Shown: in pieces, positions 1,813-64,000 of the stretch | Numbering within the stretch: position 1 is the stretch's first letter | How the letters are laid out: each line of letters begins with the position of its first letter | From: Minisyncoccota bacterium | Lineage (GTDB): Bacteria; Patescibacteriota; Minisyncoccia; UBA6257; 2-01-FULL-56-20 | NCBI GenBank assembly: GCA_035541435.1 | Contig: DATKNL010000010.1 | Span: 94,477-158,476, forward strand | Length of the DNA stretch: 64,000 nucleotides | Direction of reading: 5' to 3' | The notes under the pieces: generated by a model | Databases searched by the model: none | Told to the model about the DNA's origin: nothing | What the model saw: only the letters and a program-made list of their open reading frames with translations | Made by a program: the position numbers and the translations under genes

Positions 1813-1892
1813 TAAAAAATCATTAAAATTGCCGAATTAAAAATCATAAAAATATCCAATAAACATAGATTTTCTCTAGTGATAAACAAAAA

Positions 1893-2182
1893 TGTTTTTC
1901 AGAATGTTTGTCGCTAAACAACCCATAATTCATTTTCCGATGTTTAGCGCTAAACATCCATTAATTCATTTAAAATTGTTTAGCGTGAAACATTTATAAA
2001 ATAATTAGCGAATGTTTGTCGCTAAACAACCAATAATTCATTTTAGGATGTTTGTCGCTAAACATCCTAAAAATCATTTATAGAAACAGATGAAACTGAA
2101 AAACAATTTCAGAATGTTTGTCGCTAAACATCCCATAATTCATTTTTGGAGTGTTTAGCGCTAAACATCAATTAATTCATTT
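1893..2182. repeat. Iteron-like tandem array. It has about seven 35-40-bp direct repeats, each carrying the palindrome TGTTTAGCGCTAAACA (or the variant TGTTTGTCGCTAAACA) followed by cc-ATAATTCATTT. It ends exactly at the yraN start codon.
   Basis: The units were read directly at about 1898, 1938, 1976 (degenerate), 2011, 2047, 2108 and 2149. GTTTAGCGCTAAAC is a perfect 14-bp palindrome. The region is AT-rich within a GC-rich genome. Confidence 0.7.
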
Positions 2183-8583: not shown

Positions 8584-9201
8584 TTGCTAGAAATAGGGTA
8601 TTCAATGGACAGAATTTCACGACGGACGAAGGCCCTTGTGGCCTTCATTATTCTTGTAGCGGGCGGGTTTGCGATCACGGTCGTGTGGGGGAGCAGGAAT
8701 CAGGTTCCCGAGGCGTTCACCGACGCCCGCTTGCAGGGCGCCCTCATTTCCCAGACGATCGTAGGCATTTCGAATTCCTCGACCCAGGAGCTCGCCGAGA
8801 TCAACGCGCTTGACCGGAGCGGGAACTACGCCCAGGCGCTTTCCCTTACGACCGACCTCGTGAACCAGAGCCAGCAGCTCCGGGACCAGGGGGTCAAGCT
8901 GTCGAATCAGGTCGGGACGATGACGCAGAGCCTGTCGAGCATCAATTCGTTCTATGCGCAGCAGGCGGCGCTCGAGTCGATCTCGAGCCGGCTCGCGCTC
9001 ATCAACCAGCTCATAACCTATAGCAACGACCTTGACCGGCTGCTCGCCGTGCTTCAGGCGCGTTTTTCGGGAACCTATGAGCCCGCCGGGACCGTGCAGG
9101 GCATCGTTGACCAGATCAACACCGACGTGAACGCGATCAACAACTTCAACACGCAGGCGGAGCAGGCGATGGATCAGTTTGATAAGATAGTGAACAAGTA
9201 G
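8584..9201 (+). CDS. Hypothetical membrane-anchored protein. It has an N-terminal TM helix and a Q/N/S-rich coiled-coil extracytoplasmic region.
   Basis: The TM segment reads ALVAFIILVAGGFAITVVW. The alternative start is MDRISRR at 8605. Confidence 0.5.
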   Translation: MLEIGYSMDRISRRTKALVAFIILVAGGFAITVVWGSRNQVPEAFTDARLQGALISQTIVGISNSSTQELAEINALDRSGNYAQALSLTTDLVNQSQQLRDQGVKLSNQVGTMTQSLSSINSFYAQQAALESISSRLALINQLITYSNDLDRLLAVLQARFSGTYEPAGTVQGIVDQINTDVNAINNFNTQAEQAMDQFDKIVNK

Positions 9202-9272
9202 GGCGCGTAGCTCAACGGCAGAGCAGACGTCTTATACACGTCCGGTTCCTGGTTCGAATCCAGGCGCGCCCA
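9201..9272 (+). tRNA. tRNA-Ile with anticodon UAU, which decodes AUA.
   Basis: It folds as a canonical cloverleaf: acceptor GGGCGCG/CGCGCCC, D-stem GCTC/GAGC, anticodon stem GACGT/ACGTC, loop CTTATAC (U33, anticodon TAT, A37), T-arm CCTGG-TTCGAAT-CCAGG, discriminator A. Confidence 0.8.
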
Positions 9273-9299
9273 CATCGCGTTCCGCACCCCGCGCAATCA

Positions 9300-15397: not shown

Positions 15398-16039
15398 ATG
15401 AGGAAAAGCGAATGGGTCATGCTTCTGATCGTGGCCGCGGCCGCCGTTACGGCGTGGGTTTTCTATCCTCAGCTGCCGCCGCTCGTCGCCGTGCATTGGG
15501 ATTCCCATGGGGTGGTGAACGGCTATTTTGCCCGGGAATCGGGCGTCGCCATCTTCCCCATCGTCATCGCGGCCCTTTTCATCATCTTTTTCATCATTCC
15601 CCGCATTGATCCAAGGAGGGAGAACATCAGGAAGTTCAGGCGCTATTACAACTATCTCGTCATAGCGATCGCGCTGTTCTTCTATTATCTCTTCGGGCTT
15701 TTCCTCGCCTGGAACCTCGGCTTGCAGTTCGACATGCTCGAGGTGCTCGTGCCCGCGTTCGCCGTCCTTTTCTGGGTCATAGGAGCGGTCCTGCCGCATA
15801 CCCAGCCTAACTGGTTCATCGGGATCCGCACGCCGTGGACCATCTCGAGCGCCGATGTCTGGCGCAAGACCCACGAGCTTGGCGGGATCCTCTTCAGGGC
15901 GTCGGCCGTCATGTCGCTCTTTGGCATCTTCGTGCCTCCGTCCGCGCTTCCGCTCATGCTCATCTCGGTCGTCCTTTCGTCAATCGTCCTCGTCGTCTAT
16001 TCATACTTCATTTACGAAAAGGAACGGAAGACGGCGTAG
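15398..16039 (+). CDS. SdpI/YhfL (DUF1648) family membrane protein.
   Basis: It is a polytopic membrane protein with the N-terminal pattern YPQLPPLVAVHWDSHGVVNGY, which is characteristic of the DUF1648/SdpI immunity-like family. Confidence 0.6.
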   Translation: MRKSEWVMLLIVAAAAVTAWVFYPQLPPLVAVHWDSHGVVNGYFARESGVAIFPIVIAALFIIFFIIPRIDPRRENIRKFRRYYNYLVIAIALFFYYLFGLFLAWNLGLQFDMLEVLVPAFAVLFWVIGAVLPHTQPNWFIGIRTPWTISSADVWRKTHELGGILFRASAVMSLFGIFVPPSALPLMLISVVLSSIVLVVYSYFIYEKERKTA

Positions 16040-16045
16040 GCGACG

Positions 16046-17188
16046 ATGAGAGTCCTGATTGTCGGTGCCGGTTTGGGCGGCCTTGCCTTGGCAGCTTTTT
16101 TGGATAGCTGCGGCATCGAATACGTCATCGTCGAAAAACATTCGGACTGGCTGCGTGAGGGATATTCCCTGGGTCTTTGGAACAACGGACGGGCCATGCT
16201 CAAAAAGCTGGGATTGTCAGAAATGCTTGATGAGCACGAAATCACGTTTCAGCGCTTTTTGATTTGCGACGGGAATGGCGCGATCCTTCGGGAGTACAAC
16301 CTGTCTAGATTCTATGCCGAGTTCGGTATGGGGTATTCGCATGTAAGGCGAGCGGACCTTCACGATTGGCTGCTTCGAAACGTGAAGCATCCCATTCGGA
16401 TGAATACGTCGCTCATTGCCCTGAATAATTCGATGACGAATGTGGAGGCAACCTTTTCCGATGGCGGCAGGGAAGTGTTCGATCTTGTGGTCGGCGCTGA
16501 CGGGATCCATTCCGACGTTCGAAGCATGTGCTTCGAACGTCATTTGGAATCCTATACGAATTGGCGGGCCTGGTATGTCTGGGTCAGAAGATCTTTTGCG
16601 CAGCCAAGGACCGTTTCCGAATATGTCGCCCCAAATGAATTCGCCGCGGTATTCGATGAGGGCGACAAGGCCCTGGCGGTGCTCGTGGCTCGAACCGATC
16701 ATTCGCTCTGGGATGCTCCCGAGAACAGAATCGAACGACTCAAGGCGTTATTCAAAGGCGAACCGGTCCTCATCCCCGAGATCCTGAATGGTGCTACCGC
16801 CGAAAACATCCTGCCCGTTGATCTCGTCGAGATCTCATTGAAAAAGTGGTCAGTCGGAAGAGTCGTGCTCATCGGCGATGCCGCACACGGATTCGAGCCG
16901 TTTGCCGGTCTCGGCGGTTCGCTGGCGATGGAGGATGCCTATGTTCTCGCCGGTGAATTGAAGAAGGCGCCCGATGCGAGTGAAGGCGCGATCTCGCGTG
17001 CGCTTGAAGCATATGAGGCCAAGCGGCGCAGGCGGGTCGAGGAGGCCCGAACGTTGACCAACCGCATGCAGGGGTGGGCGACTATTCGCTCCCCGTTATT
17101 GAGAAAGATCGTCAACCGGTGCGTCCCGTTCCTTCCGGAGTCATGGATAACGGACAACTATTTTTCCTTCATGCGGGAGGAGATTTGA
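16046..17188 (+). CDS. FAD-dependent monooxygenase (UbiH/salicylate hydroxylase-like).
   Basis: It has an N-terminal FAD fold (VLIVGAGLGGLALA), a GADGIHS motif and a GDAAH motif. Confidence 0.75.
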   Translation: MRVLIVGAGLGGLALAAFLDSCGIEYVIVEKHSDWLREGYSLGLWNNGRAMLKKLGLSEMLDEHEITFQRFLICDGNGAILREYNLSRFYAEFGMGYSHVRRADLHDWLLRNVKHPIRMNTSLIALNNSMTNVEATFSDGGREVFDLVVGADGIHSDVRSMCFERHLESYTNWRAWYVWVRRSFAQPRTVSEYVAPNEFAAVFDEGDKALAVLVARTDHSLWDAPENRIERLKALFKGEPVLIPEILNGATAENILPVDLVEISLKKWSVGRVVLIGDAAHGFEPFAGLGGSLAMEDAYVLAGELKKAPDASEGAISRALEAYEAKRRRRVEEARTLTNRMQGWATIRSPLLRKIVNRCVPFLPESWITDNYFSFMREEI

Positions 17189-17321
17189 TTCGGTCGCCCT
17201 CGGAGGGAATCGCCCGCGACTCAAATGCTCGCCGCCGCTCGCATTTGGTCTGGGCACCGCCTCGCCGGAATTTTCTGCTGAAAATTCCGGCTCCGGCGTT
17301 CGATTCCCTCTAAGACAACAA

Positions 17322-17432
17322 ACAGCAGGAATATGCCTCGAAAGGGAGCCTCGGAGGCACGTAGGTGCCGAGAGCCTAGGCGCGTGTTCAGCAGAACACG
17401 ACGCCGTCCCTTTCGAGACATATTCCTGCTGT
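17322..17432 (-). repeat. Structured repeat element, copy D. It is inverted relative to copies A and B and directly abuts the tRNA-Arg 3' end.
   Basis: A 26-bp outer inverted repeat (acagcaggaatatgcctcgaaaggga ... tccctttcgagacatattcctgctgt, with 1 mismatch) encloses GTGTTCAGCAGAACAC. This is the reverse complement of the conserved inner hairpin of copies A and B. Confidence 0.65.
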
Positions 17433-17434
17433 TG

Positions 17435-17506
17435 CGCCCTCGGAGGGAATCGAACCCCCATAACCAGCTTAGAAGTCTGGCGTTCTATCCATTGAACTAC
17501 GAGGGC
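17435..17506 (-). tRNA. tRNA-Arg (UCU).
   Basis: On the minus strand it has acceptor GCCCTCG/CGAGGGC, T-arm GGGGG-TTCGATT-CCCTC and anticodon loop CTTCTAA. Positions 31-39 form an A·G mismatch, so the loop assignment is slightly uncertain. Confidence 0.7.
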
Positions 17507-17584
17507 ACGGGCATCGCGGCGGACGCCGTGCGTGCATTGATTCTAATCCAAAAATGGGCTAGGTTGAAGTGGCGCGTTTGCGAC

Positions 17585-17655
17585 CGGGCCGTAGTGTAAC
17601 GGTAGCACGAGTCCTTTGGGAGGATTTAGTCCGAGTTCAAATCTCGGCGGCCCGA
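17585..17655 (+). tRNA. tRNA-Pro (UGG).
   Basis: It has C1-G72, acceptor CGGGCCG/CGGCCCG, anticodon loop TTTGGGA and T-arm CCGAG-TTCAAAT-CTCGG. Confidence 0.85.
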
Positions 17656-17721
17656 CAGGAAGATGGGCGGCCACGCTTGTTTTCGAAAGCGGAATACGAT
17701 AAGATGAAAACCGCTTTGTGC

Positions 17722-17792
17722 GCCGCGGTAGCTCAACGGTAGAGCGGGCGCCTGAAGAGCGTTATACGGGTGTTCAACTCACCCCCGCGGCA
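17722..17792 (+). tRNA. tRNA-Phe (GAA), tentative.
   Basis: It has acceptor GCCGCGG/CCGCGGC, D-arm GCTC-AACGGTA-GAGC, anticodon loop CTGAAGA (G37 is unusual for Phe) and T-arm GGGTG-TTCAACT-CACCC. Confidence 0.65.
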
Positions 17793-17847
17793 CAGGCAGG
17801 AAAAATCCGGCACAGCATGCCGGATTTTTCGTTCGCGGTCGGTTCGG

Positions 17848-29855: not shown

Positions 29856-29939
29856 GCTGGGGTGGTGAAATGGCAGACACGCAAGGTTTAGGACCTTGTG
29901 CCGCAAGGCGTGTGGGTTCAAGTCCCACCCCCAGCACCA
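29856..29939 (+). tRNA. tRNA-Leu (UAG), type II, with encoded CCA.
   Basis: It has acceptor GCTGGGG/CCCCAGC, anticodon loop TTTAGGA, a long variable arm TGCCGCAAGGCGT, T-arm GTGGG-TTCAAGT-CCCAC and ACCA. Confidence 0.85.
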
Positions 29940-29943
29940 GAGA

Positions 29944-30044
29944 TTTATTTTCCCCAAGAAAGGGTCGGCTCGTTTTCTGCTGAAAACGGCCTACGCCTCC
30001 GCGCCTTCGCGCGTCCGGCATACCCTTTCTTGGGGAAAATAAAT
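29944..30044 (+). repeat. Structured repeat element, copy A. It has a 23-bp perfect outer stem enclosing the conserved inner hairpin.
   Basis: The outer stem ATTTATTTTCCCCAAGAAAGGGT ... ACCCTTTCTTGGGGAAAATAAAT encloses TCGTTTTCTGCTGAAAAC ... CGCCTTCGCG. It starts 5 nt after the tRNA-Leu CCA. Confidence 0.7.
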
Positions 30045-30139
30045 ACTCTTCTGTTTTGGGTGGGGCTTGTACGAGTGGAGGGGGGTCGGGGAACTCGGCA
30101 CCGCTTTAAATGCCTGCAAAGAAGCGCTAAACTGAATGC

Positions 30140-31540: not shown

Positions 31541-32464
31541 TCAGTCCTCCTTGCGCCGCGTGCCGTGGAACGACTTGTGCACGTCCCGCAGCTGCTTGTT
31601 CGTGAGGTGCGTATAGATCTGCGTGGTCGATATGTTCGAGTGGCCGAGCAGCTCCTGCACGGCGCGGATGTCGGCGCCGTTGATCAGGAGGTCGGTCGCG
31701 AAGCTGTGCCGCAGCTGGTGCGCATGGATGCGTTTCGGAATGCCCGCTTCGCGCGCGCGCCGCTCGACGACGCGTTCGACGGCCCGCGTCGTGATCGGGC
31801 CGATGACGTTGCCCATCCGGTCGAGGCTGACGAACAGCTTCTCTTCGGCGTCGGCGCGCCTCGCGAGATATCTCTGCAGCGCATCGCGCGCGGAATCCGA
31901 GATGAAGACGACGCGGAGCTTGTCGCCCTTCCCGCGCACGGTCGCCTCGCCGCGACGGATGTCGATGTAGCGCGAGAGCGAGCAGAGCTCGGCCAGGCGC
32001 AGTCCCGTCGAGAAGAAGAGCTCGAGGATCGCCTTGTCGCGCAGCGACCGCAGGTCGTTGCCCTTCGGGGCCGCAAGCAGCCGCTCGAGGTCGGCATATT
32101 CCAGAACGTCGATCTGCCGGGCCGGCGCCTTGGGCAGCTCGATCTTCTCGGCGGCGAGCGCCTTCACGTTGCGCTTCGCGAGATATTTGAGGAAGTTCCG
32201 AAGCGCGATGACGTAATAGCCCTGCGTCACCTTCTTGAGCTCGCGGCGCGCAAGGGCCTTGCGGAATTCGGTGACGAGCGACTCGGTGATGTCCTTGGCG
32301 GAGCGGATATCGGCGAACGTCAGGAACTCCTTGAGGTAGTGGCGATAGTTCTCGCTCGTCTTCGGCGAGCGATTCTTCTCGACTTCAAGGTAGTTGAGGT
32401 AGTCCTGAAAGAGCTGTTCGATTTCGCTTGATGCCATTCCCTTATTATACGCCATCTGTCGCAC
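31541..32464 (-). CDS. xerD: Tyrosine site-specific recombinase, XerC/XerD-like.
   Basis: It has an N-terminal SAM-like domain (LSENYRHYLKEFL-type) and a C-terminal catalytic domain with R...HQLRHSFATDLLINGADIRAVQELLGHSNISTTQIYTHL (R-H-R-Y). Confidence 0.8.
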   Translation of the reverse strand: MRQMAYNKGMASSEIEQLFQDYLNYLEVEKNRSPKTSENYRHYLKEFLTFADIRSAKDITESLVTEFRKALARRELKKVTQGYYVIALRNFLKYLAKRNVKALAAEKIELPKAPARQIDVLEYADLERLLAAPKGNDLRSLRDKAILELFFSTGLRLAELCSLSRYIDIRRGEATVRGKGDKLRVVFISDSARDALQRYLARRADAEEKLFVSLDRMGNVIGPITTRAVERVVERRAREAGIPKRIHAHQLRHSFATDLLINGADIRAVQELLGHSNISTTQIYTHLTNKQLRDVHKSFHGTRRKED

Positions 32465-36126: not shown

Positions 36127-36234
36127 GCGCGAACCATAGTGCCGAAAGGGACGGGTCGTTTTCTGCTGAAAACCCCTCTATCTCGCCGCCTTCGCGGCTC
36201 CGATAAGCCCTTTCGGCACTACGCTTTCGCGCCC
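36127..36234 (+). repeat. Structured repeat element, copy B, between the convergent pnp-side ORF and recA.
   Basis: The outer stem TAGTGCCGAAAGGG ... CCCTTTCGGCACTA encloses ACGGGTCGTTTTCTGCTGAAAAC ... CGCCGCCTTCGCGGCTCC. It shares the 18-nt identical inner core with copy A. Confidence 0.7.
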
Positions 36235-55861: not shown

Positions 55862-56338
55862 ATGGACCTCTTGGAATACGATGACGAGATGACGGGTGAG
55901 ATCATGGATGCGATAGAGAACCTGGCGCTCATGACCCAGCGCGAGTTCGTCGCTTTGCGTGCGGAGATGCAGGAATTCAAAGAGGACCTCAAGCTTGAGC
56001 TCAAGGCCGAGCTGAAGGCCGAGCTGCGGGCGGAGTTCAAGGCCGACATCAGGACCGAGCTGCGGCCGGAGCTCCTTGCCGAATTCCAGGCGGCCCTGAA
56101 TGCGCTGAAGGCCGAACTGCACGAGGAGCTCTATAGCGGATTCACAGTCCTGCGCAACAAGATTGATGGGGATATCGCGAGCCTGCGGCATGAGACGGCG
56201 CTCGGATTCGCGGGCATGAGGAGCGAGGCCGACGAGATTCGGCAGGAAATGAGGGTCGGATTTGCCGCCGTCAGCTCGATTCTGAGCGATCACGAATGCC
56301 GGACGGAACGGCTCGAGAAAAACACCGATTTTACCTGA
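55862..56338 (+). CDS. Hypothetical coiled-coil protein with tandem ELKAELRAEF-type heptad repeats.
   Basis: It is a 158-aa ORF reading LKLELKAELKAELRAEFKADIRTELRPELLAEFQAAL. Confidence 0.4.
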   Translation: MDLLEYDDEMTGEIMDAIENLALMTQREFVALRAEMQEFKEDLKLELKAELKAELRAEFKADIRTELRPELLAEFQAALNALKAELHEELYSGFTVLRNKIDGDIASLRHETALGFAGMRSEADEIRQEMRVGFAAVSSILSDHECRTERLEKNTDFT

Positions 56339-63470: not shown

Positions 63471-63603
63471 GGAGAACTCTCCATGGGAGAATAAATCGGT
63501 AAGTTCGAATCCTCCCGCCGATATGGATAAATTAAAAAACTCAATAAAATCAATGGGATGGCACCAGGGCGACCGAGACGGTTCGAATACTGCCGCCCCC
63601 GCC

Positions 63604-63643
63604 ATGCTAAAAAAGACACTCATATGAGTGTCTGTTTTAGCAT
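63604..63643. terminator. Long perfect hairpin flanked by A-tracts and T-tracts (bidirectional terminator-like).
   Basis: The sequence atgctaaaa-aagacactca-ta-tgagtgtct-gttttagcat is a nested perfect inverted repeat. Confidence 0.6.
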
Positions 63644-64000
63644 TTGTTGAGATGAAGGATTCGAACAGCGGAGGGGGTCGGGGAACCGCGATCGGTTCCC
63701 CGTGTCGGAGAGCCGCTGAGAACCGAGGGTTCTGAGGGTGCGAGCATAGCGAACGATGTTCGATTCCCTTCCGCCTTCGCCAGCGGCGGATTTGGAAAAA
63801 CCAGGGCTTCGTCAATTAAAAAAATAGCTTCTACTTTTTTGTAGAAGCTATCCGTTCTTGCGACGGTTAACCCGTCAGAACAAAGTCAATCCGTACCATA
63901 CCCTGCCATCGCAGCAAGTTGATGGGGATCGCTGATGCGCGATCCAGCATCGAACCGGTCACGATATCGGTAGTCGAAATCGAACGATGTGCGGAGCACT

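What the first reader, a model, noticed from the sequence alone, without database searches (positions are those of the whole stretch)
17190..17435. Nest of tRNA-Arg 3'-fragment duplications plus inverted and partial copies of the repeat element next to tRNA-Arg
The 18-nt tRNA-Arg 3' segment CGATTCCCTCCGAGGGCG is duplicated 225 bp away at 17192-17210, in the same orientation as the gene. A second T-arm-like fragment (GGCG-TTCGATT-CCCTC) lies at 17297-17313 in the opposite orientation. Between them are the inverted element copy D and a partial copy (GAATTTTCTGCTGAAAATTC). Direct duplication of a tRNA 3' end is the classic scar of integrase-mediated insertion. Here only ~225 bp is bracketed, which suggests a decayed integration site or repeated element insertions and excisions at this tRNA.
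Basis: seen in the sequence. Interest (0 to 1): 0.55.

Follow-up and report, generated by a model that had tools for sequence, protein, structure and literature searches.

The report
tRNA-end copies framing hairpin modules
The duplicated tRNA-Arg pieces are the arms of two conserved branched-hairpin DNA modules that recur behind many different tRNA genes in ultra-small (Patescibacteria) bacteria and each time carry copies of whichever tRNA is next door, which points to an undescribed small element or process acting on tRNA gene ends, not to a decayed island.

Summary
The 18-mer is exact at 17195-17212 and 17435-17452, and a 13-nt inverted T-arm copy lies at 17298-17310. The locus is intact, not decayed. 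Behind tRNA-Arg(TCT) (minus strand) sit two co-oriented three-way-junction palindromes. "Y" (17318-17433) has about 109 copies in Patescibacteria genomes and metagenomes. "X" (17195-17313) has 12 strong copies. Neither matches Rfam.

The inverted fragment (I) and the direct 18-mer (D) are the two strands of X's closing helix. In other genomes the same helix is built from whichever gene lies upstream: tRNA Arg, Pro, Gly, Leu, Val or Asp, or tmRNA. The register is fixed, with I = nt 53-65 and D = nt 56-74. Of 261 tRNA genes, 17 carry such a direct copy downstream and 1 upstream.

Y sits at stop codons or tRNA ends, co-oriented, in the position of a terminator. Its arms are locus-specific and almost purely Watson-Crick.

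Best reading (about 0.4): small non-coding modules enter tRNA T-loops and regenerate the gene's 3' end while displacing the old one. Their arms are kept complementary by fold-back or template-switch copying. The enzyme is unknown. An integrase-made island remnant is not supported.

The parts
17434..17506 (-). tRNA-Arg(TCT), intact. Its nt 56-73 (window 17435-17452) are copy 1 of the 18-mer.
   Evidence: ARAGORN; Rfam tRNA 66.9 bits; 18-mer positions.
17318..17433 (-). It is a three-way-junction palindrome that starts at the base after the tRNA and is co-oriented with it. The core is 17330-17424. The locus-specific outer arms are 17321-17347 and 17407-17433.
   Evidence: Inverted repeat I12; fold -78.5 kcal/mol, z -12.2; covariance model R1, 97.3 bits; family covariation.
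17311..17320 (-). T-rich spacer (TGTTGTCTTA on the minus strand) between the 3' arm of Y and the inverted tRNA fragment.
   Evidence: Sequence. Equivalent T-rich spacers are seen in L014, L115, L163 and L129.
17298..17310 (-). I: GAGGGAATCGAAC on the minus strand, the exact inverted copy of tRNA-Arg nt 53-65. It is the 5' strand of the closing helix P1 of module X.
   Evidence: P1 pairs in the X alignment.
17213..17297 (-). Body of module X. It has conserved junction sequences and two hairpins with covarying stems.
   Evidence: Alignment A7 and RNAalifold: 39 pairs, 21 with compensatory changes. Model R2, 136.9 bits. Fold of 17190-17320: -77.3 kcal/mol, z -7.5.
17195..17212 (-). D: the same-sense copy of tRNA-Arg nt 56-73 (copy 2 of the 18-mer). 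Its first 10 nt form the 3' strand of helix P1 of X. The last 8 nt (acceptor strand plus discriminator) are an unpaired tail. It ends 6 nt from the stop codon of the convergent ORF.
16046..17188 (+). Context only: a convergent FAD-dependent monooxygenase gene. It is absent from all 80 related loci.
   Evidence: Pfam FAD_binding_3; NCBIfam; tblastn against the loci; nearest homologues 63-65% identical.
29940..30046 (+). Module Y copy A, directly 3' of tRNA-Leu(TAG) (29856-29939) and co-oriented with it. A degenerate inverted tRNA-Leu T-arm and the start of an X2-like body follow at 30047-30110.
36127..36232 (+). Module Y copy B. It starts 3 nt after the stop codon of the upstream co-oriented ORF.
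63480..63790 (+). A second nest in the window, of the same architecture. It holds tRNA-like 3' ends, a plain hairpin (63607-63644), a T-rich spacer, an inverted T-arm (GAAGGATTCGAAC), an X2-type body and a tRNA-like 3' end. No intact tRNA or tmRNA is called here.
   Evidence: X2 homologues behind the tmRNA in L096 and in L110, L065, L054 and L080.

Best explanation
SHOWN. The nest is an intact composite: tRNA-Arg, then module Y, a T-rich spacer, I, the X body and D. Y and X are two families of about 95-125-nt three-way-junction palindromes found in Patescibacteria. Each has a conserved branched core and a closing stem made of locus-specific sequence. For Y, the 5' arm is the native end of the upstream gene (last codons plus stop codon, or the tRNA trailer) and the 3' arm is its inverted copy. 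For X and its relative X2, the closing helix is made from the neighbouring tRNA or tmRNA. I is the inverted copy of nt 53-65. D is a same-sense copy from nt 56 (X) or nt 54 (X2) to nt 74. Both track whichever gene is local.

INFERRED (about 0.4). X-type modules are small non-coding insertion modules directed at the T-loop of tRNA and tmRNA genes. An insertion leaves a regenerated, intact 3' end followed by a terminator-position hairpin (a plain hairpin or Y) next to the gene. It pushes the old 3' end (D, sometimes with its old terminator and flank) to the far side. I and the stems in general are produced and kept perfectly Watson-Crick by intrastrand fold-back or template-switch copying between hairpin arms (quasipalindrome correction). 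This would explain why the arms follow local sequence.

Y itself occupies, and probably serves as, the transcription-terminator position. The enzyme responsible is unknown. The only recombinase in the window is a Xer-type tyrosine recombinase.
For: Family status and structure:
- Y has 3 copies in the window, 14 in related genomes and 94 matches on metagenome contigs, giving a working set of 109.
- On 101 Y copies, 92.6% of cells are paired against 59.6% in shuffles. 31 of 33 pairs show double changes. Slid-partner controls give 38-47%.
- X has 12 strong hits and 21 of 39 pairs with compensatory changes.

Local origin of the arms:
- The arms of Y include stop codons and up to about 20 nt of coding sequence. 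12-mers are shared only between orthologous loci.
- P1 of X covaries with the local T-loop: A-U in 6 copies, U-A for Leu, G-C for Gly.

Register of D and I:
- D = nt 56-74 (19/19) behind Arg (L115, L050), Pro (L115), Leu-GAG (L014) and Gly (L127).
- D = nt 56-73 in the window and nt 57-75 behind the tmRNA (L096).
- I always ends at G53.

Census of tRNA flanks: D lies downstream of 17 of 261 tRNA genes and upstream of 1. I lies downstream of 16 and upstream of 0. In all 8 loci with both, I precedes D.

Evidence that modules spread between tRNA loci: P3 of the window's X (at Arg) is nearly identical to that of L115's X at tRNA-Pro and differs from L115's X at tRNA-Arg.

Age pattern expected for nested T-loop insertions:
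- In L078 the proximal D is 16 nt exact and the distal D is degenerate.
- In L014 the D of tRNA-Leu is followed by a Y and a degenerate second inverted copy.
- Old D copies decay from the acceptor end while I stays perfect (L014a, L163, L116, L080).

Terminator position:
- 44 Y copies have only a co-oriented ORF stop at the 5' arm, against 6 with only a convergent ORF.
- All 10 tRNA-adjacent copies are on the tRNA's strand.
- In L019 and L006, Y sits at the apex of what is a plain GC-hairpin plus T-run terminator in L014, L007, L009, L046 and the window.

DNA-type pairing: only about 0.8% of paired cells are G.U, and there is no excess of G.U over A.C mismatches.

Presence or absence behind (nearly) identical tRNA-Arg genes.
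Against: - No enzyme was identified. The 64-kb window has no integrase, transposase, TnpB or Cas1 apart from a Xer-like recombinase 14 kb away.
- No matched filled and empty allele pair with the same flanks was found, so insertion is inferred and not seen.
- The left part of the bracketed segment (a plain hairpin or Y) does not co-vary with X. The unit that moves is therefore undefined.
- In L028 the direct repeat continues for at least 34 nt past the tRNA. That argues against a fixed-length target duplication.
- The strict end of I at G53 is not explained. Nor is the absence, in young copies, of any complement of the acceptor strand in the spacer.
- T enrichment after Y is only modest, 35% against 23% background.
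- Strict co-orientation with genes fits an RNA-level role as well as a DNA-level one.
Confidence: 0.4

Rival explanations
1. Purely replicative zig-zag. No insertion into the tRNA takes place. Any hairpin core in these genomes seeds an inverted duplication of its upstream flank by fold-back or template switching. The terminator or Y hairpin produces I, an inverted tRNA end. An X core lying next to I then produces D, the inverted copy of the inverted copy. Alternating copies of the tRNA end build up downstream.
For: - The arms of Y are inverted copies of gene ends.
- I occurs without X or D in 8 of 16 loci.
- In L134 and L080, I also includes the complement of the acceptor strand.
- L078 shows D, a hairpin, the complement of the acceptor strand, I, X and D in alternation.
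- In L028, D is followed by the same 3' flank as the tRNA.
- The stems are Watson-Crick only.
- Quasipalindrome template switching is an established mutational process (PMC7202029).
Against: - In the window, L115, L014b, L127 and L050, D keeps a perfect acceptor strand, yet the spacer before I shows no trace of its complement. D cannot have been copied from the present I flank.
- The model does not explain the constant junctions of the X body with G53 and C56, nor the age gradient in L078.
Confidence: 0.2
2. A miniature integrative cassette moved by a tyrosine recombinase (Xer-like, or one supplied in trans). The segment [tRNA 3' end, terminator, I, X] would be an element with an attP. It recombines in the T-loop in the same way as classical tRNA- or tmRNA-targeting islands. 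The folded I-X-D hairpin may act like an integron attC.
For: - The direct repeat starts in the T-loop and runs to the gene end, the classical geometry of a regenerated gene plus displaced fragment (PMC4383910).
- tmRNA is also a target.
- Duplications of the anticodon-loop type occur in L003 and L053.
- Repeat length varies (19 nt, and at least 52 nt in L028), which fits att homology.
- A Xer-type recombinase that also passes the XerA/integron-integrase model is present in the window.
Against: - No integrase lies in or beside any of the modules examined.
- X was not found among viral contigs.
- Near-identical X bodies sit at Arg, Pro, Leu and Gly with arms matched to each tRNA. A carried attP does not predict this.
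- There are no R''/R' core boxes at the outer ends, and the cassette carries no cargo.
Confidence: 0.2
3. Functional RNA. X is a structured RNA made from the tRNA 3' trailer. Its ends are selected to mimic or pair with the cognate tRNA, acting as a decoy or processing signal. Alternatively, D is a guide-like segment next to a scaffold, as in TnpB reRNA or the CAST homing crRNA. Y would be a specialised terminator or 3'-end stabiliser.
For: - Both modules are strictly co-oriented with the upstream gene.
- Unpaired junction nucleotides of X are conserved from Paceibacterota to Jorgensenbacteria and an AT-rich lineage.
- Covariation is strong.
- D is 18-20 nt long and lies directly 3' of a scaffold.
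Against: - G.U pairs are almost absent, about 0.8%.
- There is no promoter-like sequence before X, and a terminator-position hairpin lies in front of it.
- D decays in older copies while the body persists.
- There is no Rfam family and no RNA-guided nuclease gene in the window.
Confidence: 0.13
4. One reading: a decayed remnant of a larger integrase-borne island at tRNA-Arg.
For: A direct repeat of the tRNA 3' end is present. Foreign genes (FAD monooxygenase and an SdpI-like gene) lie next to the site.
Against: - The bracketed 222 bp are two complete modules conserved in many genomes, not debris.
- The foreign genes lie outside the repeat-bounded segment.
- No island sits at this tRNA in any of the related loci.
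Confidence: 0.04

Closest known systems
Genomic islands and prophages integrated in tRNA or tmRNA genes by tyrosine integrases (as catalogued by Islander, PMC4383910; T-loop and anticodon-loop 'sublocations', Williams 2002, cited from memory)
   Same: There is a regenerated intact gene plus a displaced same-sense 3' fragment. The fragment starts in the T-loop (or in the anticodon loop in L003 and L053) and runs to the gene end. tmRNA is also a target.
   Different: The bracketed segment is only 100-330 nt, with no integrase and no cargo. An inverted tRNA fragment is always present. The same body is found at many tRNA species, with arms matched to each one.
Palindromic intergenic repeats: REP/BIME/REPIN, ERIC, Correia and other MITE-like elements. 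Also insertion sequences that target hairpin loops (IS1397 into palindromic units, cited from memory).
   Same: They are short, non-coding and multicopy. They lie at the 3' ends of genes and form hairpins. In L019 and L006, Y sits at the apex of a pre-existing terminator hairpin.
   Different: In those families the whole palindrome, stems included, is conserved between copies. Here only the branched apex is conserved and the long stems are unique to each locus.
Quasipalindrome template-switch mutagenesis (PMC7202029) and fold-back inverted duplication
   Same: This mechanism makes imperfect inverted repeats perfect and copies one arm from the other. It fits the Watson-Crick-only, locus-specific stems.
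   Different: It is known as a point-mutation hotspot mechanism. It is not known to build 30-55-bp stems around a conserved core or to copy tRNA ends.
Integron attC sites and parvovirus/AAV terminal hairpins
   Same: Structure is conserved while sequence varies. The hairpins are branched (three-way junctions). attC sites act as folded single strands.
   Different: There are no R''/R' boxes, no cassette arrays, no integron integrase and no Rep gene. The elements are scattered across the chromosome.
Repetitive hairpin-forming and double-hairpin elements of sponge and fungal mitochondria (PMC2800124)
   Same: They are small hairpin elements that invade intergenic regions, often near tRNA genes.
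   Different: The sequences and hosts are unrelated. Arms copied from the neighbouring tRNA have not been reported for them.

Membership tests
tRNA/tmRNA-integrated genomic island (tyrosine integrase att scar) | An intact regenerated tRNA plus a displaced same-sense 3' fragment | tested here: met
   The 18/18 copy at 17195-17212; recurrent 19/19 copies elsewhere.
tRNA/tmRNA-integrated genomic island (tyrosine integrase att scar) | The fragment starts in the T-loop or anticodon loop and extends to the gene end | tested here: met
   The start is at nt 56 (X), nt 54 (X2), or the anticodon loop (L003, L053). The end is at nt 73-75.
tRNA/tmRNA-integrated genomic island (tyrosine integrase att scar) | An integrase gene and cargo inside the repeat-bounded segment | tested here: not met
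   The segment is 222 bp of two non-coding hairpin modules. The Pfam tables show no integrase nearby. The only recombinase is Xer-like, at 31541-32455.
tRNA/tmRNA-integrated genomic island (tyrosine integrase att scar) | An element lineage is tied to one target tRNA through a carried attP | tested here: not met
   Near-identical X bodies occur at Arg, Pro, Leu and Gly, with arms matched to each.
MITE | Terminal inverted repeats conserved between copies | tested here: not met
   The arms are unique to each locus. 12-mers are shared only between orthologous sites.
MITE | Short, non-coding, multicopy | tested here: met
   The modules are 95-125 nt. Y has about 109 copies and X has 12.
MITE | A short direct target-site duplication (2-10 bp) of fixed length | tested here: not met
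   The direct repeat is 18-20 nt, and at least 52 nt in L028.
REP/REPIN | A conserved palindrome sequence and an associated RAYT transposase | tested here: not met
   The stems are not conserved. No Y1/HUH transposase appears in the Pfam tables that cover most of the window. The rest of the genome was not examined.
Integron attC | RYYYAAC and GTTRRRY core boxes at the outer ends, cassette arrays, and IntI | tested here: not met
   The outer ends are locus-specific. The copies are scattered 6-12 kb apart. The recombinase scores best as XerC/XerD.
Intrinsic (Rho-independent) terminator | A position directly after a co-oriented gene end | tested here: met
   44 copies with only a co-oriented ORF stop against 6 with only a convergent ORF. 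10 of 10 tRNA-adjacent copies are co-oriented. Y replaces plain terminators at the orthologous S1 3' end.
Intrinsic (Rho-independent) terminator | A U-tract directly after the stem | tested here: inconclusive
   T is 35% in the 12 nt after the stem against 23% background. T-rich spacers are seen behind tRNA-adjacent copies. The consensus scanner cannot handle such large loops.
Known structured RNA family (Rfam 15) | A match to a curated covariance model | tested here: not met
   Only tRNAs, one tmRNA (L096) and one group I intron (L020) were hit. Nothing matched Y, X or X2, even at E up to 10.
RNA under RNA-level structural selection | Compensatory covariation, with G.U pairs tolerated on the transcribed strand | tested here: inconclusive
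   Covariation is very strong. G.U pairs are only about 0.8% of paired cells, and A.C mismatches (66) outnumber G.U mismatches (31) on the sense strand.
IS200/IS605-derived PATE, TnpB reRNA; casposon (Cas1) | A partner gene (TnpA/TnpB or Cas1) and that family's end structure | tested here: not met
   No such gene appears in the window's Pfam tables. IS200/IS605 elements make no target duplication. No terminal inverted repeats of the casposon kind are present.

The most novel reading that the evidence does not exclude
X and X2 (and perhaps Y) would be a previously undescribed class of protein-less, hairpin-shaped mobile modules in Patescibacteria. They recognise the universal T-loop of tRNA and tmRNA genes. 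They build their own closing helix by copying the target. The gene is thereby regenerated and each insertion carries an inverted and a direct copy of its target. Alternatively, X-D is a scaffold plus guide that directs an unknown enzyme to tRNA genes.
Probability: 0.2. Interest if true: 0.85.

Novelty: new variant of a known kind. Interest (0 to 1): 0.62.

Why it matters
If the reading holds, tRNA gene ends in the small genomes of Patescibacteria are remodelled by a recurrent, sequence-copying process. That process leaves intact genes with a trail of alternating tRNA-end copies.

- It explains pseudo-tRNA fragments, assembly breaks and the rearrangement hot spots seen at the Phe/Pro/Arg/Val tRNA cluster.
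- It adds two or three structured element families that no RNA or repeat library holds.
- It offers a natural example of insertion into an essential gene that regenerates the gene without any carried copy or nearby integrase. Such a mechanism would interest mobile-element biology, and possibly genome engineering, if the enzyme can be found.
- It cautions against scoring every tRNA 3'-end duplication as an island scar.

Tried and rejected
1. Known RNA family. Rfam at gathering thresholds and at permissive E-values on the window and on six loci gave no hit for Y, X or X2.
2. Integron attC. No core boxes and no cassette arrays.
3. Larger island at tRNA-Arg. 80 syntenic loci showed none.
4. Empty-site comparison through the FAD gene. 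The gene is absent from relatives, and its homologues are at most 65% identical and probably from another phylum. This gave no comparator.
5. Empty-site comparison among L014, L015, L021 and L023, which have identical tRNA-Arg genes. The downstream flanks are unrelated.
6. Phage or plasmid attP. A loose X pattern gave 120 viral stretches. I ran model R2 on the first 100 of them and none matched. The X2 pattern gave no viral hit at all.
7. tmRNA at 63.2-63.6 kb of the window. Not found by Rfam, ARAGORN or comparison with the L096 tmRNA.
8. Island at tRNA-Leu bounded by the Xer-like gene. No tRNA-Leu fragment lies at the far end.
9. Fixed-length 19-bp target duplication as the whole story. Contradicted by the repeat of at least 52 nt in L028.
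10. Strand test using G.U against A.C mismatches. It did not favour the sense strand, and the counts are confounded by orthologous copies.
11. The promoter/terminator scanner was uninformative for hairpins with large branched loops.
Full report
**Observation.**
- tRNA-Arg(TCT) lies on the minus strand at 17434-17506.
- The 18-mer CGCCCTCGGAGGGAATCG, the antisense of tRNA nt 56-73, is exact at 17195-17212 and 17435-17452. Nothing else in the 64 kb matches with up to three mismatches, and 0.27 matches are expected.
- An exact 13-nt copy of tRNA nt 53-65 lies in the opposite orientation at 17298-17310.
- Between them are a 116-nt hairpin (17318-17433; arms 96% complementary; -78.5 kcal/mol, z -12.2) and the hairpin CCGGAATTTTCTGCTGAAAATTCCGG (17265-17290).
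- The stretch is identical in an ENA assembly and a Logan assembly of other read sets.

**Organism.** Neighbouring genes and 80 syntenic loci place the window in a soil lineage of Patescibacteria (Paceibacterota/Parcubacteria). The nearest species representatives are 86% identical in the adjacent S1-domain protein.

**Module Y.**
It has a long closing stem, a hairpin with a C-UGCU-G loop, and a GC-rich hairpin with a 3-nt bulge.
- A covariance model finds three copies in the window, 14 in related genomes and 94 matches on peat, soil and groundwater contigs fetched with a core pattern.
- On 101 copies, 92.6% of cells pair against 59.6% in shuffles and 38-47% when partners are slid. 31 of 33 pairs show changes on both sides.
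- Only the branched apex is conserved. The closing stem extends a further 10-40 bp and is different in every locus.
- The 5' arm is native sequence. It often contains the last codons and the stop codon of the upstream ORF, and the 3' arm is its inverted copy.
- The element is polar. 44 copies have only a co-oriented ORF ending at the 5' arm, against 6 with only a convergent ORF. Ten copies start directly after a tRNA, always on the tRNA's strand.
- At the 3' end of the S1 gene, L019 and L006 carry Y at the apex of what is a plain GC-hairpin plus T-run terminator in L014, L007, L009, L046 and the window itself.
- G.U pairs make up only about 0.8% of paired cells. The pairing therefore looks DNA-made and not RNA-selected.

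**Module X.**
- The interval 17195-17313 is not debris. Read in the sense of the tRNA it is: I (GAGGGAATCGAAC), a conserved junction (GSCGGAG), a hairpin with an AT-rich covarying stem and a CAGCAG/CACCAG loop, GAGSCGGTGCCCAG, a second covarying hairpin, CTCGCGGG, and then D.
- Homologues follow Y or a plain hairpin in L014 (twice), L115 (twice), L163, L129, L089, L127, L116, L078 and L080.
- RNAalifold gives a three-way junction with 39 pairs, 21 of them with compensatory changes.
- The closing helix P1 is I paired with the first ten bases of D.
- A longer relative, X2, follows the tmRNA of L096 (tmRNA 121 bits). X2 also follows tRNA-Leu(TAG) and tRNA-Val in L080, L078, L054, L065 and L028. 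It occurs in the window at 63.6 kb, and as a stub after Y copy A.
- Neither Y, X nor X2 matches any Rfam family.

**The arms are copies of the local tRNA.**
- In each locus, I and D match the gene immediately upstream: Arg-TCT, Arg-GCG, Pro-TGG, Gly-GCC, Leu-GAG, Leu-TAG, Val-TAC, Asp-GTC or tmRNA.
- The register is constant. I = nt 53-65/66 and always ends at G53. D = nt 56-74 (19/19) in L115 Arg, L115 Pro, L014 Leu, L127 Gly and L050 Arg. D = nt 56-73 in the window and nt 57-75 behind the tmRNA. With X2 bodies, D runs from nt 54.
- P1 covaries with the T-loop variant of the neighbouring tRNA.
- In a census of 261 tRNA genes, a direct copy of at least 11 nt of the last 27 nt lies within 400 nt downstream of 17 genes and upstream of 1. 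An inverted copy lies downstream of 16 and upstream of none. In all eight loci with both, I precedes D.
- The layout is always: tRNA, terminator-position hairpin (plain or Y), a short spacer that is often T-rich, I, body, D, and often another hairpin or Y.

**Evidence bearing on history.**
1. Hairpin P3 of the window's X (at tRNA-Arg) is nearly identical to that of L115's X at tRNA-Pro and differs from L115's X at tRNA-Arg. The two hairpins of X assort independently among copies. Bodies therefore spread or recombine between tRNA loci and end up with arms that match the new tRNA.
2. D is either perfect or decayed from its acceptor end, while I stays perfect (L014a, L163, L116, L080).
3. L078 has two successive modules. 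The D nearest the tRNA is near-perfect and the distal D is degenerate.
4. In L014, the D of tRNA-Leu is followed by a Y and a degenerate second inverted copy, as if it were the old gene end with its old terminator.
5. In L028 the direct repeat continues for at least 34 nt into the 3' flank.
6. L003 and L053 show duplications that start in the anticodon arm, and L090 has a pseudo-copy interrupted in its T-loop.
7. Relatives with identical or nearly identical tRNA-Arg genes lack the modules (L016, L020, L022, L024, L021, L023).

**Mechanism.**
- Shown: the architecture, its recurrence, the local origin of the arms, the polarity, the position of Y in the terminator slot, and Watson-Crick-only pairing.
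- Inferred, and my commitment at about 0.4:
  - X-type modules enter tRNA and tmRNA genes at the T-loop.
  - The event leaves a regenerated 3' end plus a terminator hairpin next to the gene and displaces the old end (D) distally.
  - Hairpin arms, including I, are generated and kept complementary by intrastrand fold-back or template-switch copying of the kind known from quasipalindrome mutagenesis (PMC7202029).
- This accounts for the T-loop start of D, for its perfection when young and decay when old, for the age order in L078 and L014, and for the tracking of the local tRNA.
- It leaves several things open: the enzyme, the exact mobile unit (the hairpin to the left of I does not co-vary with X), the strict end of I at G53, and the long repeat in L028.
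- No integrase, transposase, TnpB or Cas1 is encoded in the window. A Xer-type recombinase lies at 31541-32455.

**Rivals.**
- A purely replicative zig-zag, in which each hairpin seeds an inverted copy of its upstream flank and D is a copy of a copy, explains I, the arms of Y, L078 and L028. It fails on the perfect acceptor strand of young D copies next to spacers that carry no complement of it (0.2).
- A miniature integrase or Xer cassette with a carried attP fits the geometry defined for islands (PMC4383910). It lacks an integrase and a viral or plasmid counterpart, and it does not predict one body serving many tRNAs (0.2).
- A functional RNA (tRNA-end mimic, or scaffold plus guide) fits the polarity and the conserved junctions. 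It does not fit the near absence of G.U pairs, the preceding terminator hairpin or the decay of D (0.13).

**Comparison with known systems.**
- The composite works like a tRNA-targeting integrative element in that it regenerates the gene and displaces a fragment. It fails membership because it has no integrase, no cargo and no fixed target.
- It resembles REP, MITE and Correia-type repeats in size, copy number and position at 3' ends. It fails on the defining conserved inverted repeats.
- It shares 'conserved structure, variable sequence' with integron attC sites and the branched-hairpin shape with parvoviral termini, but has none of their defining sequence boxes or genes.
- I found no description of such elements in the searchable literature. 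That search covers open-access papers only.

**Verdict.** This is a real, recurrent and apparently undescribed variant of palindromic, tRNA-targeting small elements. The descriptive part is solid and the mechanism is provisional. Interest 0.62.

Noticed in passing
window 1866-2182: About eight tandem 36-bp units, each holding the 18-bp palindrome ATGTTTAGCGCTAAACAT. They lie in the intergenic region between a 143-aa gene and a UPF0102 gene. The units are nearly identical, so they look like iterons, operators or a centromere-like site and not a spacer array.
   Followed up: partly
L001 11546-11598 (equivalent to window 17590/17591, inside tRNA-Pro): The ENA assembly of the same population has a 53-bp insertion in tRNA-Pro. 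It consists of a 26-nt direct duplication of tRNA nt 7-32 flanking 27 nt of novel sequence. ARAGORN no longer calls the gene. It could be a population variant or an assembly artefact.
   Followed up: partly
window 63480-63790: A second nest of tRNA-like 3' ends, with a plain hairpin, an inverted T-arm, an X2-type body and a tRNA-like 3' end. No intact tRNA or tmRNA is detectable nearby.
   Followed up: partly
window 30047-30110: After Y copy A (behind tRNA-Leu) there is a degenerate inverted copy of the tRNA-Leu T-arm, followed by the first ~25 nt of an X2-like body. It is truncated before the next ORF.
   Followed up: partly
L020 11211-11434 (also likely L003, L016, L017, L022): The tRNA-Phe gene of some relatives is interrupted by a group I intron (Rfam Intron_gpI, 61 bits). 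This is why ARAGORN misses tRNA-Phe in those loci.
   Followed up: yes
Loci L003-L066, downstream of the S1 gene (window 17434-17793): The Phe/Pro/Arg/Val tRNA cluster is syntenic, but the Arg-Pro pair and tRNA-Phe are inverted in different relatives. In L115, oppositely oriented X modules flank the Arg-Pro pair and could mediate such inversions.
   Followed up: partly
window 15398-17188: The FAD-dependent monooxygenase and the SdpI-like gene between tRNA-Val and tRNA-Arg are absent from all 80 related loci. The nearest monooxygenase homologues are only 63-65% identical, one of them labelled Terriglobales. This suggests recent foreign DNA next to the tRNA-Arg modules.
   Followed up: partly
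window 9201-9273: tRNA-Ile with anticodon TAT, which is uncommon in bacteria, is conserved in the related genomes.
   Followed up: no
window 31541-32455 (minus strand): The only recombinase in the window is a Xer-type tyrosine recombinase. It scores for XerC/XerD and passes the XerA/integron-integrase model. It lies beside rpsO, 1.5 kb from tRNA-Leu plus Y copy A.
   Followed up: partly
L046 9867-9958, L011 9865-9959, L008 9864-9958, L012 6724-6818, L007 40-136: An orthologous Y copy sits upstream of the S1 gene. The outermost arm contains TTGCAA, which with a TATAAT 16 nt away forms a promoter-like pair just before the S1 start codon. The inner ~20 bp of the stem are completely different in each genome, yet perfectly paired.
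   Followed up: partly
window 55985-56131: A 12-bp-period repeat (GAGCTGAAGGCC-like) lies inside a coding region. It is probably a repetitive coiled-coil protein segment.
   Followed up: no
L002 (Logan contig), 3' end: The contig stops inside tRNA-Arg, right after the two palindromic modules. These hairpins can therefore break short-read assemblies.
   Followed up: no
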